Source of the DNA: a virus
Lineage: Duplodnaviria; Caudoviricetes
IMG/VR virus record: IMGVR_UViG_3300008113_000041
Coordinates: 807 to 64,806 of that record
DNA: 64,000 nt
Reading direction: 5' to 3' (one strand)
In this document: positions 40,396 through 54,796 of the stretch, piece after piece
Layout: each line of letters starts with the position of its first letter
How positions within the stretch are numbered: position 1 is the stretch's first letter
Notes under the pieces: generated by a model
What the model saw: the letters and a program-made list of their open reading frames with translations, nothing else
Told to the model about the DNA's origin: nothing
Database searches by the model: none
Position numbers and translations under genes: made by a program

Positions 40396-40396
40396 G

Positions 40397-40886: not shown

Positions 40887-41261
40887 ATGTCGATCCTCGC
40901 TATCATCGCCAAGTCTTCTCTGCTCGTCAAGTTCGACGCGGCTATCGTCAAGGGTGATATCGTCAACCCCGCTACGCGCAAGGTGGACATGCGCTCGGTC
41001 AAGTCCCTCGCGGTCAAGGATGCCACGGTCAAGGGTTCGGACGGTAAGGACTACCCTTTGATGGCGGTCTGCGTCAAGATGCTCGGGGGTAACCCCGTGA
41101 CGGAAGACCTCCGCACCTCTGACTTCGCGGTCAAGGCGGGTGAGGTCATGCGCGAGTACCTCATGGCGGAACGCCCTGACGCGGGCTGGGTTAACGCCAA
41201 CACGGCTAACAAGGCGAACCCGAAGGCTGCGCTCGCTAACCTCGACGCGGTTACCTTCTGA
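40887..41261 (+). CDS. early hypothetical protein (first early gene)
   Basis: AAGGAG RBS; strongly GC3-biased codons. Confidence 0.85.
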   Translation: MSILAIIAKSSLLVKFDAAIVKGDIVNPATRKVDMRSVKSLAVKDATVKGSDGKDYPLMAVCVKMLGGNPVTEDLRTSDFAVKAGEVMREYLMAERPDAGWVNANTANKANPKAALANLDAVTF

Positions 41262-41292
41262 TTCCATCGGGGGGAGGTTACTAACCCCCAAC

Positions 41293-41326
41293 ATAACCCT
41301 TCGCCCTAACGGGTGAGGGGTTATTT
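41293..41326 (+). terminator. hairpin after first early gene (terminator or processing site)
   Basis: ATAACCCTTCGCCC-TAAC-GGGTGAGGGGTTAT then TT. Confidence 0.5.
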
Positions 41327-41367
41327 CCGTTTGGTCATTCGCCTCAAAGTTAAGAGGAGTCGTGGTT

Positions 41368-41694
41368 ATGGTTACCATGTTTAGCGTGTGCGAAGTTAAG
41401 GACGGGGCAGTTAAGGAACTCAACTATCTGCGTTCGCTTAATGAGGCGAAGGCTTATGCCTCGGGTCGTTATGATGGAACCGTTAAGTTCCTTCCATTGT
41501 CCGCTGTGGTTATGTCCGTCACGGGTGACGATCCACGCTTTATGCGGGAGGATGTTTACATTGTCGAGGTTAAGATGACGCAGGATGAGTTGGACGAGCC
41601 TATGGGCGGCAAGGCTGTTCCCGATAGGTTGTACTGGGAGATTGTCGAGTCGTGGGATAAGTTTGAAGCCTCTAACGGAATGGGGGTTAAGTAA
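41368..41694 (+). CDS. early hypothetical protein
   Basis: AAGAGGAG RBS, ATG 41368. Confidence 0.75.
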   Translation: MVTMFSVCEVKDGAVKELNYLRSLNEAKAYASGRYDGTVKFLPLSAVVMSVTGDDPRFMREDVYIVEVKMTQDELDEPMGGKAVPDRLYWEIVESWDKFEASNGMGVK

Positions 41695-41696
41695 TC

Positions 41697-42059
41697 ATGG
41701 GTAAGATCAATCCAGTCATGCTCACCTGCATTAACCAAGCCATCGCTAACGCGAAGGCAACTAGGTCGCGTGAGGCTATTCACGCCGCAGTTATCAGCCT
41801 CGCCCGTAATGCTGGAATCAGTTATGGGGTTGCGGCTAACATCCTGCGGGTTAAGTCGGGCTTGGATACGCCCGATGCGGATGAGGCTCGCGCACTTAAT
41901 GAGCGCGGGGCTTATCTCGGGCAGTATATCACGCCCGTTAAGGATTACAAGCCTATCACGACAGACCCTAACCCGCAGCCAGTTAAGGCGAAGGCGGTTA
42001 AGCCGAAGGTTGTTACCACCGTTACGGTTATCCCGTCTGACCCTAACTTCTTTCTCTGA
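41697..42059 (+). CDS. early basic protein, possible HTH
   Basis: LARNAGISYGVAANILR resembles an HTH; Lys/Pro/Val tail. Confidence 0.7.
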   Translation: MGKINPVMLTCINQAIANAKATRSREAIHAAVISLARNAGISYGVAANILRVKSGLDTPDADEARALNERGAYLGQYITPVKDYKPITTDPNPQPVKAKAVKPKVVTTVTVIPSDPNFFL

Positions 42060-42075
42060 TAAGGAGTCATCAGTT

Positions 42076-42270
42076 ATGAGCGAAGAACTTAAGTCCCTCA
42101 TCCTTGAGAGTCAGACAGATATGATTCTGTCGGGTAGCCTTGAGCCTATCAAGGAAGAGGTTAAGGTGAAGCGGGTTAAGACTGACTACGATCCGCACCG
42201 CGCACCTAACTGGTTCCGCGTTGTGTGGGACGAGGTTATGGCTGACACGGTTGAAGGTCAACTTGGTTAA
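42076..42270 (+). CDS. early hypothetical protein
   Basis: AAGGAG RBS; true start is internal to track ORF 41770. Confidence 0.7.
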   Translation: MSEELKSLILESQTDMILSGSLEPIKEEVKVKRVKTDYDPHRAPNWFRVVWDEVMADTVEGQLG

Positions 42271-42282
42271 GAAAGGAACACC

Positions 42283-42594
42283 ATGATTAACAATCTTGAC
42301 GAGTACAATAAGTGGCAGGCTATGCAGGTTGCTCCTATTGTGAGCCAACTTAATGAGATCACGGGTGTCTTTGATGCGCTTATGCGCGAAGAAGATATGC
42401 CTGCACAGCGTATGATGTTCTTGGTTAGCGCGGCTTGGAAACAGTACGACAAGGTTATCAATGCTGATGGTTATGCCATGTGGTGTAATCATTCAGAGGT
42501 TATTGCCGCGAGGGAAAACCTCTACAATACGCACTTGTCGCTTATGTCTCTCGTTTGTTGCGACGATTATAAGAACAAGCAAGTTTGGGCATAG
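42283..42594 (+). CDS. early hypothetical protein
   Basis: AGAAAGGA RBS. Confidence 0.75.
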   Translation: MINNLDEYNKWQAMQVAPIVSQLNEITGVFDALMREEDMPAQRMMFLVSAAWKQYDKVINADGYAMWCNHSEVIAARENLYNTHLSLMSLVCCDDYKNKQVWA

Positions 42595-42702
42595 TCTATA
42601 TAACAGACTTGTCGAAACACAAGTTATGAGTTATGACTTGTGTCGTATAGGATTGGTTATCCTATGCCTGATGAGACAAACCAAGTTAAGGAGATTTCAA
42701 GT

Positions 42703-42861
42703 ATGAAACTGTTCTTTGTTCGGTACGGGTCTTTCTCTGTCCATGTTATCGCTGCAAATAAGGATGCTGCGGCTATCCTTGCGGTGGATTTGTTTGTGGA
42801 TACAGGACTACCGTTTAACGCCGATGTAGTTGTTGTTACGCTTGTTAAGGACTACAACTAA
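42703..42861 (+). CDS. early hypothetical protein
   Basis: AAGGAG RBS. Confidence 0.65.
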   Translation: MKLFFVRYGSFSVHVIAANKDAAAILAVDLFVDTGLPFNADVVVVTLVKDYN

Positions 42862-42875
42862 AGGAGATTTCAGTT

Positions 42876-43022
42876 ATGCTCGACGGAACAATCGGCCCAA
42901 AGTGGTTGGTTCTAGTTGTCATCAACAACAAGGTTAAGATGGAGTTGTTTAACTCTTTGGTTGAAGTCAACAACTACATGAACACCGTTAAGGGCTATGA
43001 AATCAAGGTCTTCCGCGTCTAA
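42876..43022 (+). CDS. early hypothetical protein, 48 aa (not in ORF track)
   Basis: AAGGAG RBS; MLDGTIGPKWLVLVVINNKVK... Confidence 0.65.
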   Translation: MLDGTIGPKWLVLVVINNKVKMELFNSLVEVNNYMNTVKGYEIKVFRV

Positions 43023-43035
43023 AGGAGATTCAACT

Positions 43036-43416
43036 ATGAGCGAAGCGCGTATCTACGATGCACTTAACAACACGATTAACCTCATTCGTAAGAAGATGGA
43101 AGGTTATCGTGACGATATTGCAGAGTTGCGTAAGGAGAACTACGCTTTGCGTCAGCAAGTTAACACAACAAGCGGTAAGTTTGTTGTTGTTGAAAGACAT
43201 GACAATATGTGTATGTCGATTCCCCTTCATCGGGCATCGGAAAACGGTTATGGGATTGCTACTTTCCCTACCGTTAATGATGGTATCAAGTTTGTGAACA
43301 ATCTTCTTGGTACGGAAGGTATCGTTTGGGAGTTTAAGAGTTCCCAATATGATTCCTTTAAGGCGGTCGGTGTTACCAACGATGGTCGTAAGTTTGCGGT
43401 TGTGTTCTGCAACTAA
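43036..43416 (+). CDS. early hypothetical protein
   Basis: AAGGAG RBS; N-terminal coiled coil. Confidence 0.75.
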   Translation: MSEARIYDALNNTINLIRKKMEGYRDDIAELRKENYALRQQVNTTSGKFVVVERHDNMCMSIPLHRASENGYGIATFPTVNDGIKFVNNLLGTEGIVWEFKSSQYDSFKAVGVTNDGRKFAVVFCN

Positions 43417-43422
43417 GGAGTA

Positions 43423-43689
43423 ATGACTATGCGTGATCGTGCATGGCGGCGAGAGCAAGCTCGGAAGCATAAGCGGCGCAATCTTAAGGCTTGTCGGGAT
43501 ATCTTCCCGAAGGCTGTGGGTTCGCTCAATGATGTTTCAGAGTATCTTCGTAACGATACGGGATTCTCTGGTAACTTTGCGGCGGGTATGGAATCGCCGT
43601 TTGGCAAGGAACGGTTGAGCGAGAAGGAACCATACCTTCGATATAAGAAGGCGCGAGAAATCCCGATGGAGGATAACACCAATGGGTAA
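43423..43689 (+). CDS. early hypothetical protein
   Basis: AAGGAG RBS. Confidence 0.65.
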   Translation: MTMRDRAWRREQARKHKRRNLKACRDIFPKAVGSLNDVSEYLRNDTGFSGNFAAGMESPFGKERLSEKEPYLRYKKAREIPMEDNTNG

Positions 43690-43787
43690 GAACACCAAGT
43701 TTGGTAGTCGTGGTCTGGACGCATGGTATTATGCCATGTGGGTTGTGTTCATCATTGTTGTCGTGGTCACCATTAAGGAGGGAATGT

Positions 43788-44024
43788 ATGCTGCGTGAGC
43801 ATTCGAGTCGCCTTATTGTTGTAAGGTCTGATCGTTACCGTCCTGGTTGTGAGCCTACCCGTAATGGGTTTAAGGCTTATGCCAAGCGTATGACGGACGA
43901 GCGTAATCACCGTTTGGCTGTGGTTCATGCCGTTATCAATGGCTTGCCTATTCCTACGAATAATACGGCAAAGTCTAAGGGTTCTTCGATTAAGGTGGAT
44001 ATCTCTAACGAGGTGACATTCTAA
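43788..44024 (+). CDS. early hypothetical protein
   Basis: AAGGAGG RBS; coupled to next gene. Confidence 0.6.
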   Translation: MLREHSSRLIVVRSDRYRPGCEPTRNGFKAYAKRMTDERNHRLAVVHAVINGLPIPTNNTAKSKGSSIKVDISNEVTF

Positions 44025-44350
44025 TGAGCAAGGTTGAAACTGTGTTTCTTGTTAAGAACTGCTGCGGTATGATTCTTTCCGTTAATACGGAACGAGTAAG
44101 CATTCAAAAGCATTACTGTGAGACTTGTGGTGATAGGTCTTATCGCCAATATAAGTGTCACTTGGTTAGAGCAGATGTTGATAAGCCTGTTTCGGCTTAT
44201 GGTGCTAACCTTCTTGGTCTTGGCGTTGACTTCTCTACCATTAGAGAGATTGATGCTATTGGAGCAGAGGGTGTTTATCTTGTGCCTCATGTGTTTGGTT
44301 TTAGACTTGACACTTGTCAGGGTGATATTTGGGGAAGGGAGGTTGCCTAA
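44024..44350 (+). CDS. early hypothetical protein, possible Zn-binding
   Basis: CC..CETC; TAATG coupling. Confidence 0.65.
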   Translation: MSKVETVFLVKNCCGMILSVNTERVSIQKHYCETCGDRSYRQYKCHLVRADVDKPVSAYGANLLGLGVDFSTIREIDAIGAEGVYLVPHVFGFRLDTCQGDIWGREVA

Positions 44351-44553
44351 TGTATCTTAAGGGTTCTTTGATTGATCCACCTTCGGGATGGAAGTACGGT
44401 TTTCCAAAGGAACTTGACCGCGATCTGGTTACAGGTCGTGAACTACGGGAATGGGTCATTGCTAATGGATATCCATACGAAGTTATGGTTTCCTTTCGTA
44501 ATAACTTTCCGATTAGGATTATTGCTAATGTTAAGGAAAACAACAATGGATGA
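44350..44553 (+). CDS. early hypothetical protein
   Basis: IDPPSGWKYGFPK..W...NGYP; GGAGG RBS. Confidence 0.7.
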   Translation: MYLKGSLIDPPSGWKYGFPKELDRDLVTGRELREWVIANGYPYEVMVSFRNNFPIRIIANVKENNNG

Positions 44554-44707
44554 AAAAGAAAAGTGTACCTGTTGTCATTGTGATCGGGTGTATTATAACA
44601 CACCTGATAACTATTCGTGGAATATGTGCCACGATTGTTGTGATATTTGGTTTGCTTTTGGTTGTCCGATTGAAGGTTAATCCCTAACTTTTTTCAAGGA
44701 GATTGTT

Positions 44708-44896
44708 ATGTCCATCACCGAAAAGCTTGCCTTCACTTATATCTTTGCCGTTGGTCTTGCTCTGATTGTGTTTACTCGGGTTAACTGGGAGTGGGAGAAC
44801 GCCGCACTAGTTGTCTTTGGTGTGGTTAACATTCTGTTTGTTGTCTACTTTGCGTTTGGTCTTGATCGTATTAAGGTTTCCATTACTAAGGAGTAA
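44708..44896 (+). CDS. early two-TM membrane protein
   Basis: Two hydrophobic helices; AAGGAG RBS. Confidence 0.7.
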   Translation: MSITEKLAFTYIFAVGLALIVFTRVNWEWENAALVVFGVVNILFVVYFAFGLDRIKVSITKE

Positions 44897-44973
44897 TATG
44901 TTTAAGAAGCACAAGCCAGCGCGTTGGGTTTATGTTTCTTTTGTTAACTGGGATTATGATGACGAGGAGGACT

Positions 44974-45183
44974 ATGAGATGTTCTGATTGTGGTAATAAT
45001 ATACCACAAGAAAGACTTGACTTTTTTCCTGACATAACTTATTGTGTTGGTTGTGCTGACAAGCATGAACCAATCAAGATATGCAGGATTATCTATCCCC
45101 ATAAGACAGGCGGGGAACTCTTTGTGGCTGAAGGTAAGCAGAACATTGATAGGCTTAACGCCGAATATAGGAGATCACGCTGA
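44974..45183 (+). CDS. DksA/TraR-type C4 zinc-finger protein
   Basis: CSDCGNNIPQERL..P..YCVGC. Confidence 0.8.
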   Translation: MRCSDCGNNIPQERLDFFPDITYCVGCADKHEPIKICRIIYPHKTGGELFVAEGKQNIDRLNAEYRRSR

Positions 45184-45530
45184 TGCTTGTTGAGATTGTT
45201 CGTTTTGTTTCTGACATTGAAGACTATGGTGCTAAGGATTGGAGCATTAGGTTTACCGTGGAACACGAATGCAAGTATCAGCTTCTTCGTAATAAGATTA
45301 ACGATAGGCTCGAAAGAGACTATGGTATGTCTGTTTTCCGTTTGTCTTGGCGTGAGGAAGATATCTCTGGTCAAGGTATGGGTTGTAAGCAATCACCTGT
45401 ACTGCATATAACTTTCTCTAGTTACATGGAGATTAAGGAATTCTTTGATGCTCATGGCAGTTTTCCTGCTTGGGTTTATGAACTTCGTAATCGTATTGAA
45501 GGTGTAGAAAAGGAGAATGGACATGGTTGA
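45183..45530 (+). CDS. hypothetical protein
   Basis: AGGAG RBS; TGATG coupling. Confidence 0.7.
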   Translation: MLVEIVRFVSDIEDYGAKDWSIRFTVEHECKYQLLRNKINDRLERDYGMSVFRLSWREEDISGQGMGCKQSPVLHITFSSYMEIKEFFDAHGSFPAWVYELRNRIEGVEKENGHG

Positions 45531-45738
45531 AGGATATGAGATGGACTTTTTGCCTGATGGTGAATGTGGTATCTCTGATTGTATCCATGCTATTAAGCAT
45601 GGGTTTTATCGCAATCTAGATGTTGCTGTGATGACAGCAAGCAACTGCATATGCTCTGGTCTTTATCTTTCGGATGATGAAGAAGAGTTTCTTATTCGTT
45701 TTCTTTTTAACGCAACAGGAGTACGCTATGGGTCTTGA
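45517..45738 (+). CDS. hypothetical protein
   Basis: AAGGAG RBS. Confidence 0.6.
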   Translation: MDMVEGYEMDFLPDGECGISDCIHAIKHGFYRNLDVAVMTASNCICSGLYLSDDEEEFLIRFLFNATGVRYGS

Positions 45739-46099
45739 TACTTATGCAATGTTTCCTAAGCAACACGAATCTTATGTGGAGGGTGGTATTAATACACTTC
45801 CAGATGATTGGTTTAATCATACCTTGTGTGCGGGTATGTTAAGTGGAGATGGTTCATCGTTTCGTGGTAAGGTGTACAATGATTATGTACACTTTGTAAC
45901 TGGTGAATCGTTGTATCAGGAAGAGATTCCCGTTGAGCGGGTTAAGCGTATGGCAGAGATGCTAGCAAAGCCTGACGCATTTGATAAGTATCAACGGGCT
46001 AGGCATGATCCTTATATCACAGAAGACCAAGCGGTGATGTTAGCCGAATGGTTTAAGGTTGTAGCAGATAACGATTCTGTGGTTGTTGGTTGGTGGTAA
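45728..46099 (+). CDS. hypothetical protein
   Basis: MGLDTYA start after AGGAG. Confidence 0.75.
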   Translation: MGLDTYAMFPKQHESYVEGGINTLPDDWFNHTLCAGMLSGDGSSFRGKVYNDYVHFVTGESLYQEEIPVERVKRMAEMLAKPDAFDKYQRARHDPYITEDQAVMLAEWFKVVADNDSVVVGWW

Positions 46100-46119
46100 T
46101 TAAACAAGGAGATACGACA

Positions 46120-46440
46120 ATGAGTGATACCGATAACAGTGTTGATGGTTCTGATTTTGTTAGCGAGGATAAGGCTGCGTTTGCTAAGTTTGCTGCTTTT
46201 ATTCCTGCCTCGTATTACCCTATGGAGGGTTTCCGTATTGGTTATCGTGCGCGTATGGCAGGTAAGCCTATGGTGCATGAGCCGTACTATATGACGGAAG
46301 CGGATATTAGTACCCTTCCTGAGTATTGGGGTGTTTGGTACGATGATTATCGTCGTGGTTATGAGTCTGCTGATAATCTTCTTCAGGAAAGTGAAGCACT
46401 TATTGTTAAGAATGGAACCCTTTACAATGCATGGATTTAA
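46120..46440 (+). CDS. hypothetical protein
   Basis: AAGGAG RBS. Confidence 0.7.
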   Translation: MSDTDNSVDGSDFVSEDKAAFAKFAAFIPASYYPMEGFRIGYRARMAGKPMVHEPYYMTEADISTLPEYWGVWYDDYRRGYESADNLLQESEALIVKNGTLYNAWI

Positions 46441-46601
46441 TAAAGGTTTGATTGTACAAGAAGACATCTTTAATGATGGTCTTTGGTTTAGTGTTTATGA
46501 TGGCGACTCTCTTATTGAATCCTTTCGCTTTAGAGATGATGCCGAAGCCTATCTATCCTTTCTTGAAAGGGCTGATCACTTTGAGGATCACTACCTGTAA
46601 G

Positions 46602-46614
46602 TTGGGGCTATAGA
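46602..46614 (+). promoter_or_regulatory. putative phage RNAP promoter upstream of tRNA region
   Basis: Exact TTGGGGCTATAGA, intergenic. Confidence 0.8.
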
Positions 46615-46660
46615 TAATCGCTCTGGAGGGATGCGTATTCCATACAATAACGCATACTAT

Positions 46661-46738
46661 GGTAGGGTGCCTGATAGATTTGGTAAAAGGTCGTGACTTA
46701 TAATCGCGCTCATGTGGGTTCGACTCCCACCCCTACTA
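46661..46738 (+). tRNA. tRNA-Ile(UAU)
   Basis: Acceptor GGTAGGG/CCCTACT, anticodon arm CGTGA-CTTATAA-TCGCG, T arm GTGGG-TTCGACT-CCCAC; no encoded CCA. Confidence 0.85.
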
Positions 46739-46741
46739 CTT

Positions 46742-46921
46742 ATGACTAATGAAGAAAAACTGAAACAATTTATTGAGAGTTGGTATATCTTTATGGTAGA
46801 CTATGATGGTTACTATGATAAGGAGACTAAAAAGATAGATAAAGAAGGTATTATCAGTCTTATTGATGAGTTCGTTGATGGCGCAAAGAATATCCTAAAG
46901 GAGACAAACAATGAGCAATAA
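46742..46921 (+). CDS. hypothetical protein
   Basis: ATG just after tRNA; no clear RBS. Confidence 0.5.
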   Translation: MTNEEKLKQFIESWYIFMVDYDGYYDKETKKIDKEGIISLIDEFVDGAKNILKETNNEQ

Positions 46922-47556: not shown

Positions 47557-47564
47557 GAGAATAT

Positions 47565-48237: not shown

Positions 48238-48269
48238 TACATATAGGCTACTGTAATAGGTAGCCAACT

Positions 48270-48353: not shown

Positions 48354-48374
48354 CTAACAGAAAGGAGATAGAGT

Positions 48375-48587
48375 ATGAAGGAAATCACTGTGTTTACTGT
48401 GTGTAAGACGGTTCGTGGTGAAACTTGGTCTATTAAAGCGGAGGATGATATTCATGTAAAAGAAATCCTTGTGGAACTTATAAACGATCCTGATAATATG
48501 TTTAAGCAAAACTACCAACTCATTGATTCCGAAGACTTTGATACCGAAGAGTTTAAGATTGAAAGGATTGATATTAACAATGCCTAA
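48375..48587 (+). CDS. hypothetical acidic protein
   Basis: AAAGGAG RBS. Confidence 0.65.
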   Translation: MKEITVFTVCKTVRGETWSIKAEDDIHVKEILVELINDPDNMFKQNYQLIDSEDFDTEEFKIERIDINNA

Positions 48588-49083
48588 CTGGTGCATGAAC
48601 GAACTAACTATTAGTGGTCCTCGTAAGGCAGTAGCAGAATTTCTTAATGATGCTGGATATAATGAAGGTTGCTTTTCTTTTGGTCGCCTTCGTCCTATTC
48701 CTCAAGACTTGCTTGATATTCATTATGGTTCTGTCTTTGTAGGTGAAGTTCAGTATACTTGGTGGCGTGAAAAGGATGGTGTTGTTACTCCACTTAGTAA
48801 TGAAGAGATTGATGAACTCACTAAAAAGTATGGAACTTGTGATGCTTATCATTGGTGTATTTCTAACTGGGGAACCAAGTGGGATTGTTGTAATCTAGAC
48901 TATCTTTCTGATGGTTTTAGGGATGGTGATGACTATCCTTATGTTGAGCTTATGTTTGAAACTGCTTGGGGTCCACCAGATGTTCTTTATGATTATCTGA
49001 TTCAACAGTATCCTGAAGTTTGTCTTGATTGGTTTTATAAGGAACCAGGTTGTCGTATGGCGGGTTGGTTAGGAGATGAGTAA
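48580..49083 (+). CDS. Api92/YubB (DUF1281)-like ferredoxin-fold protein
   Basis: MPNWC.N.L, NWGTKWD, FETAWGPP motifs. Confidence 0.8.
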   Translation: MPNWCMNELTISGPRKAVAEFLNDAGYNEGCFSFGRLRPIPQDLLDIHYGSVFVGEVQYTWWREKDGVVTPLSNEEIDELTKKYGTCDAYHWCISNWGTKWDCCNLDYLSDGFRDGDDYPYVELMFETAWGPPDVLYDYLIQQYPEVCLDWFYKEPGCRMAGWLGDE

Positions 49084-49124
49084 TGGATTTGGAAGACGAT
49101 ACACATCTAACAAAGGAGAGTAAA

Positions 49125-49385
49125 ATGACAGCGCAAGAAGTTATTAATGTTCCCATTATGGTTTCGCCAGAGATCTATAATCAGGTTGCTGATCTGGTTA
49201 TTTCTAAGATTGAAACGAATCCTGCATTTATTAATATGATTGATGCCAAGATTGATTCTTGGATGGATCGTAATTTTGATATCAATGATTATGATGTCGA
49301 TGGTATTCGGGATGATATCCTTGACGCGGTTCGGTATGATCTTCGTAATAGCATTCGTGCTGAAGTTGAAATTTTTGTTGACTAA
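49125..49385 (+). CDS. hypothetical acidic protein
   Basis: AAGGAG RBS before ATG 49125 (alternative start 49083). Confidence 0.65.
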   Translation: MTAQEVINVPIMVSPEIYNQVADLVISKIETNPAFINMIDAKIDSWMDRNFDINDYDVDGIRDDILDAVRYDLRNSIRAEVEIFVD

Positions 49386-49402
49386 CTAAAGGAGATATAA
49401 CA

Positions 49403-49849
49403 ATGAAGGAAAATATTGCAAAGATGTGGGTTAAGGCTCTTCGTAGTGGTGAGTACAAGCAAGTTAAGAACACCCTTTGTGGTGTTCGTAAGGATGGTGA
49501 TGTTGGCTTCTGTTGTCTTGGTGTTCTTACCGATCTTTATATGAAGGATCGTAAGGCTAAGAAGAAGGGTTGTGAATTTGATCTTGTTAGACTTGAACCT
49601 TGTTATGATAGCCTTACTGAATCTACTCCTCTTTGGGAAGCCGATGGTTGTAATGGTCAACTTCCTCTTGCTGTTGCTAAGTGGGCTGGGTTTAATGTGG
49701 ATAAGCATAATTGGGAAACTGGAGATTATGGAGATGATAACGATATTGATCTTGCATCTCTAAATGATGGATGTAAAACTAAGAAGGTGAATCCTCGTAA
49801 TTTTAAGCAGATTGCTAGCACGATTGAGAAGAACTGGGAAAACATTTAA
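49403..49849 (+). CDS. hypothetical protein, paralogue A
   Basis: WVKALRSGEYKQ..FCCLGVL..LNDG..F..IA..IE. Confidence 0.85.
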   Translation: MKENIAKMWVKALRSGEYKQVKNTLCGVRKDGDVGFCCLGVLTDLYMKDRKAKKKGCEFDLVRLEPCYDSLTESTPLWEADGCNGQLPLAVAKWAGFNVDKHNWETGDYGDDNDIDLASLNDGCKTKKVNPRNFKQIASTIEKNWENI

Positions 49850-49881
49850 CTAAGTACCCTAGTCTACAAGACTAGGGGAAT

Positions 49882-49954
49882 GGTCTTCTAGCTCAATTGG
49901 TAGAGCAGCGGACTTTTAATCCGCTGGTTGTGGGTTCAAGTCCCACGGGGACCA
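49882..49954 (+). tRNA. tRNA-Lys(UUU)
   Basis: GGTCTTC/GGGGACC, GCGGA-CTTTTAA-TCCGC, GTGGG-TTCAAGT-CCCAC. Confidence 0.95.
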
Positions 49955-49972
49955 CTTAATAAAGGAGATTAT

Positions 49973-50410
49973 ATGAAAAAGAATATCATGGAAAAGTGGG
50001 TAAAGGCTCTGCGTTCTGGTGACTATAAGCAAGGTAAGGGTTATTTGAATCGGTGTAATGATACTTTTTGTTGTCTTGGTGTTCTTTGTGAACTCTATAA
50101 TAACCATCTTATCTGGAGTGATCAAGAAGGAATTAAGCGTAGACATGCATGGGATCATTGGTATAAGTATGATGAACAAGATGGTAGTCTTCCTAAGTGC
50201 GTAATGGAATGGGCTGGTATTTCAAGTTCTTATGGTGACTTTAACAACAATCAATATCTATTTGAAGATATGAATAAAGAAGAGCATCTGTCTTCATTGG
50301 CTCAACTTAATGATGGTGCTGATCCACACAATGTTTTTGTAACTACGGGAAAGCCAAAAACATTTAATGAAATTGCTGATATTATTGAGTCTAATTATAG
50401 TAGACTCTAG
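49973..50410 (+). CDS. hypothetical protein, paralogue B
   Basis: WVKALRSGDYKQ..FCCLGVL..LNDG..F..IA..IE. Confidence 0.85.
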   Translation: MKKNIMEKWVKALRSGDYKQGKGYLNRCNDTFCCLGVLCELYNNHLIWSDQEGIKRRHAWDHWYKYDEQDGSLPKCVMEWAGISSSYGDFNNNQYLFEDMNKEEHLSSLAQLNDGADPHNVFVTTGKPKTFNEIADIIESNYSRL

Positions 50411-50416
50411 TTAATA

Positions 50417-50505
50417 GGGGATACAGCCATGTAGGAAATGGCAGATACGACAAGTTTCGTACTAGCGTAAAAGCTAGAAACTCAGTGCAAATCTGAGTAT
50501 CCCGC
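50417..50505 (+). ncRNA. tRNA-like RNA without a canonical anticodon loop
   Basis: Five-arm cloverleaf; see findings. Confidence 0.65.
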
Positions 50506-50515
50506 TTATATTTAT

Positions 50516-50589
50516 ATCCCTGTAGCTCAGTTGGATAGAGCAACAGCCTTCTAAGCTGTGGGTCAATGGTTCAAATCCATTCAGGGATG
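50516..50589 (+). tRNA. tRNA-Arg(UCU)
   Basis: ATCCCTG/CAGGGAT, ACAGC-CTTCTAA-GCTGT, AATGG-TTCAAAT-CCATT. Confidence 0.95.
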
Positions 50590-50594
50590 TTCAT

Positions 50595-50665
50595 TCTTTG
50601 GTGATGTAATAGTAGCATGGTAGGCTTTGAACCTACTCGTTTTGGTGCGAATCCAAACCAAAGAG
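50595..50665 (+). tRNA. tRNA-Gln(UUG)
   Basis: TCTTTGG/CCAAAGA, GTAGG-CTTTGAA-CCTAC, TTTGG-TGCGAAT-CCAAA (non-canonical T loop). Confidence 0.8.
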
Positions 50666-50682
50666 TTAGAAAGGAGAGTGCT

Positions 50683-51009
50683 ATGTCTATTGAATTTGAT
50701 TTTGAGTTTGAATCGGAAGACTTTGAAGGCGGTTGTTACTTTGGTTGCGCTACTGTAGAAGGAGATGTTAATCGTGATTATCTTGTTGATGATCGTGGTA
50801 GTTATGGTTTTTTAGACGCAACACTCAGTGATTTTGTTATTGTTGAGGCTTTTGATGTTGATGAGTTTGGAGAAGAAAAGCAGGTTGTAGATAAGGATCT
50901 TCTGCATAGACTTGCAGAACATCTTTATTACAAGTATGAAACCCGCCTTTCGGAAACTCTCATGGAAGAATATGATAATAGAGCAGATGATTATTACGAG
51001 GAGGATTAA
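50683..51009 (+). CDS. highly acidic protein
   Basis: AGAAAGGAG RBS; Asp/Glu-rich throughout. Confidence 0.75.
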   Translation: MSIEFDFEFESEDFEGGCYFGCATVEGDVNRDYLVDDRGSYGFLDATLSDFVIVEAFDVDEFGEEKQVVDKDLLHRLAEHLYYKYETRLSETLMEEYDNRADDYYEED

Positions 51010-51297
51010 TGGAACTTATTTTTAGTTTTGTTTTAGGTGTAGTCTTTACAATCTTTTTAAATACTTATTACCTTAAGTATTTTATTTACCTTAATCGAAA
51101 GGAGACTAAGTGCTGTGAACGACGAAAGGAATATGGAGTCATCGGATACGGAGCGGGATCAAACGAATCCCAAAGAGAAGCCTTATAAGAATAAGCCAAA
51201 GAAGTCTAGGCTCCAAGAATGGAATAGATCAAGAGTAAAGCATAACGATAGAAATGGTCGTTGGGATTCAGAAGAAGATTAACAAAGGAGATTAACT

Positions 51298-52296
51298 ATG
51301 GCAGCAGAGATTTATGAAGATGATGGTGCTGTGTTTGCTCAGTCTACTTGGCATGGTCTTGGTAAGTATGTTGGTGATGCGCTTGAACCTAATGAGGCTA
51401 TGCGTATTGCTGGTCTTGATTGGACTGTAGCAAAGGTTCCTGTGTATGCTTCTTACAATAACAATAGTATCTATGATGCTGACTATGCCGCTATTGTACG
51501 AGAAGATAACCAGAAGATTCTTAGTATTCAGTCTTCTGATTATCAGCTTGTACAGAATAGTGAGGTGTTTGATCTTGCTTATGCTCTTAGTGATACGGTA
51601 AAGGTTGAGTCGGCTTTTAGTATGAACAATGGGCGAAAGCTTGTCGTTCTTCTTAAGGCTGGTTCCTTTATCTCTGCTCAGGGTAGTGATGATCAGATTG
51701 ATGAATATATGTGTATGTGTAGTTCTCACGATGGTACTATTGCACTTGGTGGTTTTGGTACCAGCATTCGTGTTGTTTGTTCTAATACTTTGAGCATGGC
51801 TTTTGCTGATAGAGCAAAGAAGAAGAAGCAAATGTATCGTGTTACCCATACTGGTAACATGGAAGATAAGCTTGACTCTATGCGTAAGGCTTTGGCTCAG
51901 TATGCAAAGACGGCTAAGTTCTTTGAGGAGTCTGTTCAGACTCTGAGTTCTAGAACCATGACTCAGGATGATATCCAGCGGTTCTGGCTTGATGTTTGGG
52001 GTATTATGGAAGAGCCTGTTGTTTCTAATCCACAGACTGATGATGAGAGTCGTAACTATCGTGAGGCTGTTGCTGCTATCTCAACTTGGTCTGAAACCTT
52101 TGATCAGGAGCGTAAGGATCTGAACCTTACGCCAAATCTGTGGGTTGCTGCTAATGCAGCGACTAAGTGGTTGCAGCATAAGAATCCTGCGCGTGGTCGT
52201 AAGCCTAGTGCGGAAAGTCGAGCATATAATAATATCCTTGGTAAGCAACAGGATACAACCCTTGCTATCATGGGTTATGCATTAGAGCTTGTTTGA
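51298..52296 (+). CDS. DUF932-family protein
   Basis: WHGLG, AGLDW.V, YQLVQN, SSHDG, IRVVCSNTL, HTG motifs. Confidence 0.88.
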   Translation: MAAEIYEDDGAVFAQSTWHGLGKYVGDALEPNEAMRIAGLDWTVAKVPVYASYNNNSIYDADYAAIVREDNQKILSIQSSDYQLVQNSEVFDLAYALSDTVKVESAFSMNNGRKLVVLLKAGSFISAQGSDDQIDEYMCMCSSHDGTIALGGFGTSIRVVCSNTLSMAFADRAKKKKQMYRVTHTGNMEDKLDSMRKALAQYAKTAKFFEESVQTLSSRTMTQDDIQRFWLDVWGIMEEPVVSNPQTDDESRNYREAVAAISTWSETFDQERKDLNLTPNLWVAANAATKWLQHKNPARGRKPSAESRAYNNILGKQQDTTLAIMGYALELV

Positions 52297-52330
52297 AAGA
52301 AAGATTAACTTAGTTCATTGGAGGTCTATC

Positions 52331-54796
52331 TTGTTAATCAACTGGAATAATTTATCTAAAGAGGAACAAGAAAGACGAAAGAATCTTCAAGTAACTCTTG
52401 AAGAAGATATGCTTGTTGCTAGTGAACAAAAGTATTGGGATGTCTATGATGTTCACCCTGATGAGGGGATTCCAGAACAGGAACTACTTAATAAGTGTGT
52501 CTTGTATCTGGAACCCTCTTATCAGGAGTGGATTGATACAGTATCTAAATCCAAGAGAACACCAGATTGGGCTTATCCTTTGTTTGCTTTAGGCGCAAAG
52601 AAGATGGCTGATGTTACTCTGCGTGTCATTATGATTGAGTGGTTTGGATCTAATGTTTGGACTAGAGATCTTGATTTAAAAGAGTTGCCATTACCTTCTG
52701 CACAACACATTGCTTTAGAGATAGCCAATATGACTATTGATATTATTGGTTATAATAAAGCAAGGATTGATTTTAAAAAGGACTGGCTAACTCAATCTCA
52801 GTATCTAAAAGCATGGACACCTAAACGATGTACTGCGTTTGCTAAGAAGATGGGATGTTTAGATAGATCAAAGTTTTCTAGAAAACAAAAGGAAGACTTT
52901 GGTCATCATATGTTGCGTATTGCAGAAACAAGCGGTGTTATTGAACTTCGTAATATTCGTACATATAATAACAAAGGGTGGCGTGAAAAAGTATTAGTTG
53001 GTTTTAGTGATACTATCTTGCAAGAGCTTAATCAGGCTCACTCTGATATGATTACACAAGCCGCTATGATTTATAGACCAATGATTGTTCCTCCTATTAA
53101 GCATTCCGTTGATGCTTCTGGTGGACATCTTTTGTCTTATGTTAGAAAACCTGTTGTTCAACGCTTTAGGGATGTGTTTGAAGATGAAGAACAAACAAAA
53201 AAACAAAAGGGTTCAGTCCCTAGTAATATTGTTGTTGACGGTCTTAATTCTCTTATGCACACAGAGTGGGCAATAAATCCACATGTGTATAATATAATGG
53301 AGACTTTGTTTAAAAACAACACTAGAGAAGGTAACCTACCAGCTTATGATTTTAACGCTTTTGATTTCTCAGAACCATATCCAGAGAATGGAACTAAAGA
53401 AGAAAAGATTTTCTGGAAGTCAAGAAAAGAAGAAGCATATGCAGCTTGGTATAAGGAAGAACATCTTAGATCTAGAATGCTTGTTCGTATGCGACTAGCA
53501 AAAGACTTACTTAAGTACAAGTTCTTTTACCATGTGTATACTTGTGACTTTAGAGGTCGGGCTTATACGGCTTGTGAACTTTTAAGTCCACAATCTTGTG
53601 ACTTTGATAAGGCTTTGATTTATTTTGCAACGCCAATTAAACAAACAGATAGTGGAAGGTATTGGTTAAAGGTACACATTGCAAATCTTTTTGATCAAGA
53701 TAAGATTTCTTTTAAGGATCGTATTAAATGGGTAGATGATAATATGGAAATGTTACGGGCTATCTATGATAATCCTTATGATACAAGAAGATTCTGGTGT
53801 TCGGATAAGAAGAAAAAGAATACTACATTTCAGCGGATTGCTGCCATCTATGAGTTGTTTAGAACAGATGGCATGACTCAGTTACCTGTACAAATGGATG
53901 GGTCTTGTAATGGTATTCAGCATTGGGCTGCTATTATGAAAGACGAAGCCATTGGTAAGATGGTTAATTTATTTGATTCAGGCGAACCCCAAGATGTTTA
54001 TTCTTTTGTAGCAGATCGTTGTACTAATATGATGAAAGAAGAAGCAAAAGAAAACCAATGGTGTAATATATTTCTTGACCATTGGGAGGGAGAGATTGGA
54101 CGATCTGTTGTTAAGCGTGCTGTAATGACTGATCCATATGGTGTTACTTTCTACGGGATTCGTAAGTATTGTCGTAGTGATGGACACTTAGATTGGGTAG
54201 CTAAAGAAAACCTTAGTGCTGCTGTAATGGAGTTGGCTACTTACATTGACCAGTCTTTGCGTGGTTGTTTAGAATCAGCAAATGAAGGAAAGAAATGGTT
54301 AAAAGAAGTGGCTGATATTGCAAGCAATCTAGCAAAGAATCTTGAGTGGACTACTCCTTGTGGATTTAGGGTTGTTCATCAGTACCATGAAATAGAAACA
54401 AGAAGAAGCGTTGCCAAGTTATTTAACATGAAAGAACTACACTTTGGTAACGCAAATATTAAAACAATAGATTCAGAATCTGTAAATAATGCTGTTGCTC
54501 CTAACTATATTCATAGTTTAGACGCTTCTCATATGTGGTCTGTAATCTATTCTCTGATAAGTAAAAACATTTTAGAGTTATCTTTTGTACACGATAGTTA
54601 CGGAACATACGCTCCTTATGTAGAAACATTACGAGTAGTAACAACAGAAGAGTTTTTTAATATACACAAACACAATCAACTTGCCTTGTTAAAGGAAAGT
54701 CTTGAGTCTTTATTGTGTGTTGAACTACCGCAACTACCAAATACAGGAACTCTTGAAATAGAAAAAGTAAAGGAGTCTCCTTATTTCTTCCAATGA
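52331..54796 (+). CDS. single-subunit DNA-dependent RNA polymerase (T7 gp1-like)
   Basis: DFRGRAY, DGSCNGIQH, RSVVKRAVMT.PYG, APNYIHSLDASH, VHDSY; TTG start after GGAGG (start uncertain). Confidence 0.97.
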   Translation: MLINWNNLSKEEQERRKNLQVTLEEDMLVASEQKYWDVYDVHPDEGIPEQELLNKCVLYLEPSYQEWIDTVSKSKRTPDWAYPLFALGAKKMADVTLRVIMIEWFGSNVWTRDLDLKELPLPSAQHIALEIANMTIDIIGYNKARIDFKKDWLTQSQYLKAWTPKRCTAFAKKMGCLDRSKFSRKQKEDFGHHMLRIAETSGVIELRNIRTYNNKGWREKVLVGFSDTILQELNQAHSDMITQAAMIYRPMIVPPIKHSVDASGGHLLSYVRKPVVQRFRDVFEDEEQTKKQKGSVPSNIVVDGLNSLMHTEWAINPHVYNIMETLFKNNTREGNLPAYDFNAFDFSEPYPENGTKEEKIFWKSRKEEAYAAWYKEEHLRSRMLVRMRLAKDLLKYKFFYHVYTCDFRGRAYTACELLSPQSCDFDKALIYFATPIKQTDSGRYWLKVHIANLFDQDKISFKDRIKWVDDNMEMLRAIYDNPYDTRRFWCSDKKKKNTTFQRIAAIYELFRTDGMTQLPVQMDGSCNGIQHWAAIMKDEAIGKMVNLFDSGEPQDVYSFVADRCTNMMKEEAKENQWCNIFLDHWEGEIGRSVVKRAVMTDPYGVTFYGIRKYCRSDGHLDWVAKENLSAAVMELATYIDQSLRGCLESANEGKKWLKEVADIASNLAKNLEWTTPCGFRVVHQYHEIETRRSVAKLFNMKELHFGNANIKTIDSESVNNAVAPNYIHSLDASHMWSVIYSLISKNILELSFVHDSYGTYAPYVETLRVVTTEEFFNIHKHNQLALLKESLESLLCVELPQLPNTGTLEIEKVKESPYFFQ

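What the first reader, a model, noticed from the sequence alone, without database searches (positions are those of the whole stretch)
40887..54796. Early-to-late codon switch matched by an all-U34 tRNA set placed just before the RNAP gene
Seen: the five tRNAs read AUA, UUA, AAA, AGA and CAA. The first early gene (40887-41261) uses none of these five codons, and every Lys codon I read in the DUF932 gene (51298-52296) is AAG. The RNAP gene and late genes use A-ending codons heavily (e.g. CAA CAA AAA GAA AGA CAA GTT AGA CAA at 3448-3474). GC content falls from the early end inward. Inference: the host is GC-rich, early genes use host codons, and later genes depend on phage tRNAs, giving a translational gate on RNAP and late expression.
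Basis: partly seen in the sequence, partly recalled or inferred. Interest (0 to 1): 0.72.

Follow-up and report, generated by a model that had tools for sequence, protein, structure and literature searches.

The report
Phage codon switch tied to tRNAs
An uncultured T7-like phage keeps A-ending codons, above all AAA, TTA and AGA, out of every gene that lies before its RNA polymerase gene, uses them freely afterwards, and carries tRNAs for just those codons, which is a sharp example of the known idea that phage tRNAs serve codons the host reads poorly.

Summary
The window is most of a 64.8 kb uncultured T7-like podovirus.

- **tRNAs:** four U34 tRNAs (Leu-UAA, Lys-UUU, Arg-UCU, Gln-UUG) are called by two tools. 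The fifth (Ile-UAU, 46661-46737) is below threshold but homologous to tRNA-Ile genes of relatives.
- **Codon switch:** in the 33 genes before the RNAP gene, AAA is 17/215, TTA 9/235, AGA 20/172 and ATA 10/193. In late genes these are 67%, 41%, 69% and 24%.
- **Not a GC gradient:** early genes with GC3 about 0.3 still avoid them, while GAA (59%) and CAA (53%) are tolerated. The effect is in-frame and confined to the third position.
- **Not tRNA-specific either:** all A-ending codons are depleted early. CTA, TCA and ACA, which have no phage tRNA, shift as much as TTA and AGA at the RNAP boundary.
- **Relatives:** one clade has tRNA-Leu moved behind the DNA polymerase gene and withholds TTA (5/243) from RNAP to DNAP. 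Two other clades break the positional rule.

A translational "gate" on RNAP is unproven and the host is unknown. I read this as a new variant of known codon compensation by phage tRNAs.

The parts
40349..40886 (+). Non-coding junction between the last late ORF and the first early gene. It is taken as the left (first-entering) end region and holds one copy of the promoter-like motif at 40396-40410.
   Evidence: ORF map; sequence; motif. Assigning it as the physical end is an inference from T7-like gene order.
40887..44024 (+). GC-rich early block of 10 small genes. GC3 is 0.58 overall and 0.82 in the first gene; A3 is 0.08. AAA 2/68, TTA 0/64, AGA 1/53, ATA 0/45.
   Evidence: AAGGAG-type ribosome-binding sites precede the starts.
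44024..52296 (+). AT-rich early block of 23 genes. GC3 is 0.31, T3 0.54 and A3 0.16. AAA 15/147, TTA 9/171, AGA 19/119 and ATA 10/148, but GAA 120/187 and CAA 34/62.
46601..46615 (+). Copy of the conserved motif GTTGGGGCTATAGAT, a likely phage-RNAP promoter, directly upstream of the tRNA block.
   Evidence: Similar motifs sit at syntenic places in relatives G1 and G2. Function was not tested.
46661..46737 (+). tRNA-Ile(UAU)-like gene, below the calling thresholds, with a 4-nt insertion in the D loop.
48270..48354 (+). tRNA-Leu(UAA), reads UUA.
49882..49955 (+). tRNA-Lys(UUU), reads AAA.
50515..50590 (+). tRNA-Arg(UCU), reads AGA.
50594..50666 (+). tRNA-Gln(UUG), reads CAA.
51298..52296 (+). 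DUF932 gene, the last gene of the avoiding block. AAA 0/19, TTA 1/24, AGA 2/15, ATA 0/15, CAA 2/17. Its homologues avoid the codons in every relative examined.
52331..54796 (+). Single-subunit T7-type RNA polymerase with a TTG start. It is the first gene that uses the codons freely: 81 of its 821 codons are AAA, TTA, AGA or ATA, spread evenly along the gene.
56356..56862 (+). Gp2.5-like ssDNA-binding protein in the middle region. It still avoids the codons (AAA 2/21, TTA 1/14, AGA 0/4, ATA 0/9), as do its positional counterparts in L006, L013, L018 and L019.
7631..9052 (+). Major capsid protein, a late gene with partial avoidance: ATA 0/24 and TTA 7/47, against class means of 24% and 41%.
191..40348 (+). 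Late block of 26 genes (A3 0.40). AAA 624/935, TTA 458/1125, AGA 426/620, ATA 196/825.
   Evidence: Without the two giant ORFs the figures are 290/435, 250/588, 217/328 and 84/449.

Best explanation
The window is a T7-like podovirus in which synonymous codon choice is partitioned along the genome, and so (inferred) along infection time.

Inferred mechanism. The unknown host reads A-ending codons poorly. This holds most for those of split codon boxes that need their own U34 tRNA: AAA, UUA, AGA and AUA. The roughly 11 kb of genes ahead of the RNAP gene must be translated from the host tRNA pool alone, so selection keeps them almost free of these codons. The phage's AT pressure is absorbed there by U-ending codons, which use the same G34 tRNAs as the C-ending ones. 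The leftmost genes keep host-like G/C-ending codons.

The phage tRNA genes lie inside this early region. They are transcribed with it, and probably again from a phage-type promoter at 46601. They raise the capacity for AAA, UUA, AGA, CAA and probably AUA. From the RNAP gene onward those codons are tolerated, and in the long late genes they dominate. Highly expressed genes (the SSB-like gene, the capsid gene) still avoid them.

Shown: the codon partition, its specificity to codon and reading frame, the match between the tRNA set and codon demand, and the conservation of both in relatives.

Inferred: the poverty of the host tRNA pool, the timing, and any dependence of RNAP synthesis on the phage tRNAs.
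For: 1. Sharp partition. The 33 pre-RNAP genes have AAA 17/215, TTA 9/235, AGA 20/172 and ATA 10/193. The RNAP-to-DNAP block has 115/261, 56/267, 52/149 and 27/205. Late genes have 624/935, 458/1125, 426/620 and 196/825. The step falls between adjacent genes: DUF932 has AAA 0/19 and RNAP 31/64.
2. Not GC. GC3 is 0.31 in early genes 44024-52296 and 0.27 in middle genes.
3. Codon-level, not mutational. The T-over-A excess is confined to codon position 3 (AT skew -0.55 to -0.61). Positions 1 and 2 show +0.05 to +0.33 and intergenic DNA -0.05 to +0.17. In-frame AAA is 0.36 of expectation, against 1.05 and 1.20 out of frame. TTA is 0.39 in frame against 1.37 and 0.73 out of frame. In the same genes GAA is 59% and CAA 53% while AAA is 8%.
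4. Match to the tRNAs. AAA, TTA and AGA show the three largest shifts of all 59 codons (lnOR 2.65, 2.28, 2.10). Matched codons exceed unmatched A-ending codons with one-sided Mann-Whitney p 0.021. The tRNAs cover ranks 1, 3, 4 and 5 of the late-minus-early usage gap.
5. Conservation. Lys-UUU, Ile-UAU, Arg-UCU and Leu-UAA occur together in 12 of the 20 related loci scanned. Three more loci hold a subset and 5 hold none; these 8 loci cover little or no sequence upstream of RNAP. A GC-rich left end is seen in 7 loci. Early avoidance is seen in G1 and G2.
6. Natural experiment. In G1, tRNA-Leu lies behind the DNAP gene. TTA is 5/243 from RNAP to DNAP, although CTA is 54/243, AAA 69/264 and AGA 48/156. 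TTA rises to 26/236 after the tRNA gene and 386/1134 in late genes. The same block has TTA 56/267 in the window and 88/315 in G2. Fisher tests of TTA against CTA give p 6e-7 and 5e-12. RNAP TTA is 0-1 of 62-65 Leu codons in three sublineages of that clade, whose RNAPs are 87% identical.
7. Selection by expression level. The Gp2.5-like SSB and the capsid gene avoid the codons even in the middle and late regions.
Against: - At the GC3-matched step (early 44024-52296 against middle genes), CTA (lnOR 1.65), TCA (1.42) and ACA (1.12) have no phage tRNA but shift as much as TTA (1.54) and AGA (1.04). ATA (0.80) and CAA (0.81) shift no more than GTA or GGA. Much of the switch is therefore a general change in tolerance of A-ending codons.
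- The switch sits at the RNAP gene, not at the tRNA genes. The 3 genes behind the last tRNA still have AAA 0/26 and ATA 0/21.
- In L018 all four tRNAs lie 5-7 kb downstream of an RNAP gene with AAA 44/69 and TTA 27/77. In L019 the RNAP has AAA 16/70 and TTA 9/73 with the tRNAs downstream. In L009 the TTA withholding is weaker (15/254).
- Presence or absence of tRNA-Gln or tRNA-Glu is not mirrored in usage. CAA in middle genes is 73% in the window (tRNA-Gln present) and 67% in G2 (absent). GAA is 74% (absent) and 76% (present).
- The host, its tRNA genes and its codon usage are unknown.
- tRNA expression and charging were not tested.
- The fifth tRNA is below threshold.
- Gene calls in relatives are automatic longest-ORF calls.
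Confidence: 0.6

Rival explanations
1. A true translational gate. RNAP, and through it all middle and late expression, cannot be made until the phage tRNAs have accumulated, so the tRNAs act as a timer.
For: The RNAP gene is the first heavy user, with 81 of its 821 codons among the four, and it lies 1.7-5.7 kb behind the tRNA genes. In G1 the RNAP has TTA 0/65, and its tRNA-Leu lies downstream. The window's RNAP has a weak TTG start.
Against: In L018 the RNAP carries AAA 44/69 and TTA 27/77 with every tRNA gene downstream. In L019 it carries AAA 16/70 and TTA 9/73. Such RNAP genes can therefore be translated from host tRNAs. The rare codons are spread evenly along the gene, at 5-11 per 82-codon bin, and are not clustered as a barrier. 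No expression data exist.
Confidence: 0.2
2. A plain compositional gradient (mutation bias or amelioration) that merely coincides with the tRNA set.
For: GC3 falls from 0.82 to about 0.25 across the early region. All 14 A-ending codons rise from early to late genes, except CGA.
Against: The partition persists at equal GC3. It is confined to codon position 3 and to the reading frame. Within the same genes it differs tenfold between AAA (10%) and GAA (64%). It steps between two adjacent genes.
Confidence: 0.08
3. The early genes are recent imports from GC-rich hosts or from phages of such hosts and keep the donors' codon usage.
For: Of the 33 early proteins, 26 have no tblastn match (E<=1e-4) in the 10 related loci I searched, out of 30 loci held. 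The leftmost genes are GC-rich.
Against: DUF932 is conserved in 9 of those 10 loci and is among the strictest avoiders in the window and in L006, L013 and L018. The early genes from 44 kb on are already AT-rich at position 3 (T3 0.54) yet poor in A. GC-rich left ends recur in relatives with non-homologous genes.
Confidence: 0.06
4. The tRNAs are mainly anti-defence spares. They replace host U34 tRNAs (Lys, Gln, Glu, Arg, Leu) that are cut by anticodon nucleases or degraded during infection.
For: Papers propose this role for phage tRNAs (PMC10264068 and bioRxiv 10.1101/2024.01.02.573894; search listing and start of abstracts only). The set consists of tRNAs of the kind I recall as nuclease targets (recalled, not tested).
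Against: This does not explain why early genes avoid the codons, nor the TTA pattern in G1. All four called tRNAs have ordinary 7-nt anticodon loops of the form C-U-NNN-A-A. It is not exclusive of the best explanation.
Confidence: 0.06

Closest known systems
Codon compensation by U34 tRNAs of AT-rich phages in GC-rich hosts, as in cyanomyoviruses (Limor-Waisberg et al. 2011, PMC3152331; passages read)
   Same: An AT-rich phage carries a few tRNAs whose anticodons start with T(U). They match codons frequent in the phage and rare in the presumed host. Lys(UUU) and Glu(UUC) are singled out in that paper as especially useful.
   Different: Here the phage is a T7-like podovirus, a group that paper describes as matching its host's GC instead. 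One genome holds both strategies side by side, with host-like or A-free early genes and tRNA-served later genes. The host is unknown.
Early and late codon usage differences in phages, and use of phage tRNAs for late genes. Sources: Mioduser et al. 2017, PMC5683454 (listing and start of abstract only); Ross and Doore 2025 on Sf14, PMC12482277 (abstract and outline); T4 work by Cowe and Sharp and by Kunisawa (recalled, not seen).
   Same: Early and late genes differ in codon usage, and phage tRNAs favour late genes.
   Different: In the window the partition is nearly all-or-none for AAA and TTA. It falls at a single gene junction and is achieved by swapping A-ending for U-ending codons at unchanged GC3. 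A displaced tRNA gene in a relative goes with a displaced onset of its codon.
Streptomyces bldA: tRNA-Leu(UAA) and TTA codons as a developmental translational switch (recalled, not searched)
   Same: TTA is almost absent from genes that must be expressed before the tRNA is available (9/235 in the window; 8/457 up to the DNAP gene in G1). It is present in genes expressed later.
   Different: Dependence on the tRNA is untested here. Four or five codons are involved rather than one. Relatives L018 and L019 break the rule.
T7-type genome organisation (Autographivirales-like)
   Same: The window has a single-subunit RNAP (PF00940), T7 gp4-type primase-helicase, family A DNAP, gp2.5-like SSB, portal, capsid and TerL, all on one strand in T7-like order.
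   Different: The RNAP is only 25-26% identical, and TerL 37-39% identical, to any cultured phage in the collection. The genome is 65 kb. There is about 11 kb of early genes, tRNA genes, and two giant ORFs of 1815 and 4148 aa without any Pfam family.

Membership tests
Codon-compensating phage tRNA set | Intact tRNA genes in the phage genome | tested here: met
   Four tRNAs score 55-73 bits against a gathering score of 29 and are called by ARAGORN. The fifth scores 25.7 bits, which is inconclusive.
Codon-compensating phage tRNA set | Cognate codons are frequent in the phage, especially in late genes | tested here: met
   Late genes have AAA 47.5, TTA 34.9, AGA 32.4 and CAA 35.4 per 1000 codons. 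These are ranks 1, 3, 4 and 5 of the late-minus-early gap. ATA is rank 12.
Codon-compensating phage tRNA set | Cognate codons are rare in the host, or the host's tRNAs for them are scarce | not testable with these tools
   The host is unknown. The only proxy is the phage's own early genes (AAA 8%, TTA 4%, AGA 12%, ATA 5%).
Temporal translational gate (bldA-like) | The codon is absent from genes expressed before the tRNA | tested here: met
   Pre-RNAP genes have TTA 9/235 and AAA 17/215. In G1, TTA is 5/243 up to its displaced tRNA-Leu. That position reflects timing of expression is inferred.
Temporal translational gate (bldA-like) | The tRNA gene always precedes its users | tested here: not met
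   In L018 and L019 the RNAP genes use the codons although the tRNA genes lie downstream.
Temporal translational gate (bldA-like) | Expression of the target depends on the tRNA | not testable with these tools
   This needs a tRNA deletion or recoding experiment in a cultured phage-host pair.
T7-like phage (single-subunit RNAP podovirus) | Phage-encoded single-subunit RNAP with T7-type replication and head genes on one strand | tested here: met
   PF00940 at E 1e-89 and phrog_414 at E 7e-149; primase-helicase, DNAP A, portal, capsid and TerL are present.
Anti-defence spare tRNAs | Anticodon-loop changes that escape nucleases | tested here: inconclusive
   The loops are CUUUUAA, CUUCUAA, CUUAAAA and CUUUGAA, which is the ordinary C32-U33 ... 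A37-A38 pattern. There is no host tRNA to compare them with.

The most novel reading that the evidence does not exclude
In this clade of 65 kb T7-like phages, codon choice is colinear with the order of genome entry and with the position of each tRNA gene. A codon becomes usable only downstream of its own tRNA gene. The phage therefore carries a translational clock written in tRNA gene order. Moving one tRNA gene (tRNA-Leu in clade C) re-times a whole block of genes, and RNAP synthesis is licensed by the phage's own tRNAs.
Probability: 0.22. Interest if true: 0.78.

Novelty: new variant of a known kind. Interest (0 to 1): 0.57.

Why it matters
Why phages carry tRNAs is an old question with several competing answers: codon compensation, host tRNA loss and evasion of defence. 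This genome and its relatives offer an unusually clean natural data set.

- One strand of genes is read in a fixed order.
- AAA and TTA are almost completely excluded from everything ahead of the RNAP gene, at unchanged GC3.
- A small conserved set of U34 tRNAs matches the excluded codons.
- One clade has a displaced tRNA gene and a displaced onset of its codon.

The data also show how an AT-rich phage can stay AT-rich in its early genes without paying a tRNA cost, by using U-ending rather than A-ending codons. If a host is found, the system would let the timing role of phage tRNAs be tested directly. The four literature searches (CC-licensed PMC and bioRxiv only) listed no paper whose title or abstract start describes codon use that follows the position of a phage tRNA gene.

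Tried and rejected
- **Near-identical cultured relatives.** Megablast of 40400-56000 against 50,697 phage records matched only the tRNA-Arg gene.
- **Host identification.** None was achieved. Protein searches gave only distant aquatic T7-like phages for TerL (Roseobacter, Limnohabitans, cyanophages, Pelagibacter; 37-39% identity) and actinophage DUF932 genes at 26-28%. I did not use the genome-contig scan or the large protein searches, because no query promised a host.
- **Two-state change-point scan.** It put the AAA change at the RNAP gene in the window, but the TTA, AGA and ATA changes fell at the middle-to-late border, because the pattern has three levels. I used fixed classes instead.
- **Consensus scans.** The sigma-70 promoter scan found 39 sites against 44.5 expected, which is uninformative. 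Terminator-like sites numbered 17 against 11.6 expected; the hairpin at 41293-41324 after the first gene is the strongest.
- **Pfam and PHROGs on early proteins.** Of the 19 pre-RNAP proteins scanned with Pfam, 3 had a family: DUF932, Kyano_Gp96 and a DUF1281_C domain.
- **RNA evidence.** One RNA-library run, labelled freshwater by its record, holds 8 listed short contigs on 45500-55400 (9 were laid). These are contigs only. They show no starts, strand or levels, and they may derive from DNA. Parts without cover mean nothing. Three further runs held next to none of the sampled words.
- **Motif-level explanation.** I considered and rejected avoidance of A-rich nuclease sites, because out-of-frame AAA and TTA are not depleted.
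- **Tools and files not available.** Supplementary files were not consulted; the supplementary tRNA tables of PMC3152331 might bear on the comparison.

Full report
**What the window is.**
The window is bases 807-64806 of a 64,806-base virus record rated 96% complete. All credible genes lie on the + strand.
- Pfam and PHROGs identify a single-subunit T7-type RNA polymerase (52331-54796; PF00940 E 1e-89, phrog_414 E 7e-149), a T7 gp4-type primase-helicase (58516-60261) and a family A DNA polymerase (60433-62139).
- They also identify ThyX, a metallophosphatase, a Gp2.5-like SSB (56356-56862), dUTPase and a class II ribonucleotide reductase.
- The structural genes found are portal, scaffold, major capsid (7631-9052), tail proteins and TerL (19012-20694).
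- Two giant ORFs (1815 and 4148 aa) match no Pfam family.
- The record is a circular permutation. A 538-base non-coding stretch (40349-40886) separates the last late ORF from a run of small genes that ends at the RNAP gene. By analogy with T7 (recalled knowledge: early genes at the left end, entry and expression in map order) I treat 40887 as the start of the early region.
- No cultured phage is close. RNAP is 25-26% and TerL 37-39% identical to the best records, and the best TerL matches are aquatic T7-like phages.

**The tRNAs.**
- ARAGORN and Rfam agree on four: Leu(UAA) 48270-48354, Lys(UUU) 49882-49955, Arg(UCU) 50515-50590 and Gln(UUG) 50594-50666. All have U34 and ordinary anticodon loops.
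- ARAGORN finds it only at lowered thresholds and then folds it differently, as Thr(CGU).
- It is nevertheless homologous to the tRNA-Ile(UAU) genes that ARAGORN calls in relatives. The anticodon arm is identical to that of L006 and the D loop has a 4-nt insertion.
- I count it as a probable but unproven fifth member.

**The codon partition.**
I curated 77 genes from ORFs, ribosome-binding sites and the tRNA positions. Usage by class (the middle column is all 18 middle genes, a wider block than the 14-gene RNAP-to-DNAP block quoted elsewhere):

| Codon | 33 pre-RNAP genes | 18 middle genes | 26 late genes |
|---|---|---|---|
| AAA | 17/215 | 155/315 | 624/935 |
| TTA | 9/235 | 67/315 | 458/1125 |
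| AGA | 20/172 | 61/173 | 426/620 |
| ATA | 10/193 | 35/244 | 196/825 |

- The step is abrupt. DUF932 (51298-52296) has AAA 0/19, TTA 1/24 and ATA 0/15. The adjacent RNAP gene has 31/64, 24/70 and 9/48.
- Per-gene density of the four codons has a median of 1.2, 8.6 and 13.6 per 100 codons in the three classes (Mann-Whitney p 3.7e-6 and 1.8e-10).
- Removing the two giant ORFs leaves the late figures unchanged in kind.

**It is not simply the GC gradient.**
- GC3 does fall from 0.82 (first gene) through about 0.5 (to 44 kb) to 0.22-0.36 (47-52 kb). From 44 kb on, the early genes (GC3 0.31) are as AT-rich at third positions as the middle genes (0.27).
- What differs is which AT base is used. Third positions are T 0.54 and A 0.16 in those early genes, T 0.42 and A 0.31 in middle genes, and T 0.40 and A 0.40 in late genes.
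- The T-over-A excess is confined to codon position 3 and is absent from positions 1 and 2 and from intergenic DNA.
- In-frame AAA and TTA are at 0.36 and 0.39 of expectation, even after allowing for the low A3. The same triplets out of frame are at 1.05 and 1.20 (AAA) and 1.37 and 0.73 (TTA).
- Within the same genes, AAA is 8% of Lys codons while GAA is 59% of Glu and CAA 53% of Gln.
- A mutational or strand bias cannot produce that. Selection at the level of decoding can.

**How specific is it to the phage tRNAs?**
Only partly.
- Comparing middle plus late genes with the AT-rich early genes, AAA (lnOR 2.65), TTA (2.28) and AGA (2.10) lead all 59 codons. ATA (1.29) and CAA (1.19) sit among unmatched A-ending codons: TCA 1.40, ACA 1.38, CTA 1.37, CCA 1.20, GTA 1.04 and GAA 1.03. 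The one-sided Mann-Whitney test of matched against unmatched gives p 0.021.
- At the GC3-matched early-to-middle step alone, CTA (1.65), TCA (1.42) and ACA (1.12) shift as much as TTA (1.54) and AGA (1.04).
- So there is a general exclusion of A-ending codons from early genes, on top of which AAA stands out.
- In absolute demand (late minus early use per 1000 codons) the tRNAs cover ranks 1, 3, 4 and 5 (AAA 42, TTA 32, AGA 26, CAA 23). ACA (33) is uncovered and ATA is rank 12.
GAA, ACA and CCA do shift, though less than AAA, TTA and AGA.

**Relatives.**
A scan of viral contigs with the RNAP found 21 related loci.
- Lys-UUU, Ile-UAU, Arg-UCU and Leu-UAA occur together in 12 of the 20 loci scanned. 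Three loci hold a subset and 5 hold none, and these 8 loci cover little or no sequence upstream of RNAP. One clade adds Glu-UUC and Asn-GUU. Only the window and its near-identical fragment L002 have Gln-UUG.
- A GC-rich left end (0.49-0.57 in 1 kb windows) is seen in 7 loci.
- Two complete relatives were fetched: G1 (68,158 bases, RNAP 60% identical) and G2 (66,041 bases, 62% identical). Both show the same early avoidance. AAA is 29/184 in G1 and 24/155 in G2. TTA is 3/214 and 8/169.
- The DUF932 homologue is among the strictest avoiders in L006, L013 and L018. Its AAA is 0/22, 1/18, 0/15 and 2/13 in L006, L013, L018 and L019, and in L019 its other counts are less extreme (TTA 1/20, AGA 1/20, ATA 2/22).
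- Most other early genes are not conserved. Only 7 of 33 have a tblastn match in the 10 loci I searched.

**A natural experiment, and its limits.**
- In G1 the Lys, Ile and Arg tRNA genes lie 3.3 kb upstream of the RNAP gene, but tRNA-Leu lies directly behind the DNAP gene, 9.8 kb after the RNAP start.
- There, TTA is 0/65 in RNAP and 5/243 over the 13 genes from RNAP to DNAP. In the same genes CTA is 54/243, AAA 69/264, AGA 48/156 and ATA 30/208.
- TTA then rises to 26/236 after the tRNA gene and 386/1134 in late genes.
- The same gene block has TTA 56/267 in the window and 88/315 in G2, where tRNA-Leu precedes RNAP. Fisher tests of TTA against CTA give p 6e-7 and 5e-12.
- RNAP TTA is 0/65, 0/65, 1/63, 1/63 and 1/62 in the five loci of that clade, which fall into three sublineages with 87% RNAP identity. 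It is 8-24 of 62-71 in the three clades with tRNA-Leu upstream or of unknown position.
- Against this, L009 (same clade) shows weaker withholding over the whole block (15/254).
- In the more distant L018 all four tRNA genes lie 5-7 kb downstream of an RNAP gene with AAA 44/69, TTA 27/77 and AGA 24/42.
- L019 and L020 are intermediate (RNAP AAA 16/70 and TTA 9/73 in L019).
- The positional rule is therefore clade-specific, not universal.

**Other anatomy.**
- The motif GTTGGGGCTATAGAT occurs 11 times with up to 3 mismatches, against 1.33 expected. The 6 copies with 2 or fewer mismatches are all on the + strand, at 652, 25171, 40396, 46601, 56140 and 62797.
- Similar motifs stand at syntenic places in G1 and G2, including just upstream of the tRNA block: 31 nt before tRNA-Lys in G2 and about 500 nt before it in G1.
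- I read the motif as the phage RNAP promoter (inference). If so, the tRNA block and the RNAP gene are also transcribed by the phage enzyme, a feed-forward arrangement.
- The window's RNAP starts with TTG where relatives have ATG. Its 81 rare codons are spread evenly along the gene.
- The Gp2.5-like SSB (AAA 2/21, TTA 1/14, AGA 0/4, ATA 0/9) and its positional counterparts in four relatives avoid the codons despite lying in the middle region. The capsid gene does so partly (ATA 0/24, TTA 7/47). This is what translational selection graded by expression level predicts.

**Most likely mechanism.**
- The host reads A-ending codons poorly, worst of all the split-box ones that need a dedicated U34 tRNA.
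- Genes that must be translated before phage tRNAs accumulate are kept free of these codons. AT pressure is taken up by U-ending codons, which share G34 tRNAs with C-ending ones (established wobble rules).
- The leftmost genes retain G/C-ending codons.
- The phage tRNAs then relieve the constraint for the bulk of the genome.
- This is the codon-compensation idea described for AT-rich cyanomyoviruses in GC-rich hosts (PMC3152331, passages read). It also fits the late-gene use of phage tRNAs (PMC12482277, abstract; PMC5683454, listing only).
- The stronger claim, that RNAP synthesis is gated by the tRNAs, is not excluded for the window. It is contradicted as a general rule by L018 and L019.
- The host is unidentified. 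The TerL relatives and a Kyano_Gp96 domain hint at an aquatic setting, and 8 listed short RNA-library contigs from one run labelled freshwater match the stretch. None of this is host evidence.

**Novelty.**
The kind of system is known. Four things appear to be new:
- the near-total, single-junction partition at unchanged GC3;
- the A-for-U substitution in early genes;
- its conservation in an uncultured clade of 65 kb T7-like phages;
- the displaced tRNA-Leu with a displaced onset of TTA.

Four literature searches listed no paper whose title or abstract start describes codon use that follows tRNA gene position in a phage. Those searches cover only CC-licensed PMC and bioRxiv.

Noticed in passing
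L013:1711-3744 (= G001:C1:39682-41715): Relative G1 encodes a second, divergent single-subunit RNAP of 677 aa (PF00940 E 1.7e-30). It is 25% identical over 424 aa to the window's RNAP, and in the printed alignment an Asp, a Lys/Tyr-Gly pair and a His-Asp align with the window RNAP's counterparts, at what I recall as catalytic motifs A, B and C (recalled assignment, not tested). It lies inside the GC-rich left-end block and has host-like codons (AAA 3/40, TTA 0/48, AGA 0/40, ATA 0/28). The window has no counterpart. The 640-aa early ORF of L019 is unrelated to it.
   Followed up: partly
window 22402-27849 and 27902-40348: Two giant late ORFs of 1815 and 4148 aa lie after the terminase gene. Neither has a Pfam family. 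The 1815-aa ORF has no PHROG; the 4148-aa ORF was not scanned against PHROGs. Together they hold 45% of the late-class codons. G1 has counterparts of 1204 and 4266 aa.
   Followed up: partly
window 652-666, 25171-25185, 40396-40410, 46601-46615, 56140-56154, 62797-62811: The conserved motif GTTGGGGCTATAGAT, all copies on the + strand, is likely the phage RNAP promoter. One copy lies inside the 1815-aa ORF and one directly upstream of the tRNA block. Related motifs sit at syntenic sites in G1 and G2.
   Followed up: partly
window 41293-41324: A 14-bp hairpin directly follows the first early gene. It is the strongest terminator-like site in 40300-58000 and could be a terminator or an RNase III-type processing site.
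   Followed up: no
window 44024-52296 (codon position 3): G exceeds C at third positions most strongly in early genes (GC skew 0.29, against 0.22 in middle and -0.01 in late genes). Early mRNAs are therefore G-rich and C-poor. This is unexplained; avoidance of Rho loading on host-RNAP transcripts is one idea.
   Followed up: no
window 52331: The RNAP gene starts with TTG (GGAGG lies 7 nt upstream), whereas L006, L013, L009 and L018 have ATG at the aligned position and L019 has GTG.
   Followed up: partly
window 47251-47556; 49403-49849 and 49973-50410: One early gene matches Pfam Kyano_Gp96 (E 5e-20), a family named after cyanomyoviruses. Two neighbouring early genes that flank tRNA-Lys are paralogues, sharing a 57-nt repeat and common homologues in relatives.
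   Followed up: no
L006:917-991 and the same place in L010, L011, L017, L021: One clade of relatives carries a tRNA-Asn(GUU) just upstream of its GC-rich early genes. It is not a U34 tRNA, so the all-U34 rule does not hold across the lineage.
   Followed up: no
window 18764-19015: An 83-aa ORF just before TerL is a GC island (GC 0.55, GC3 0.55) in the AT-rich late region. It has no PHROG match, and it may not be a real gene.
   Followed up: no
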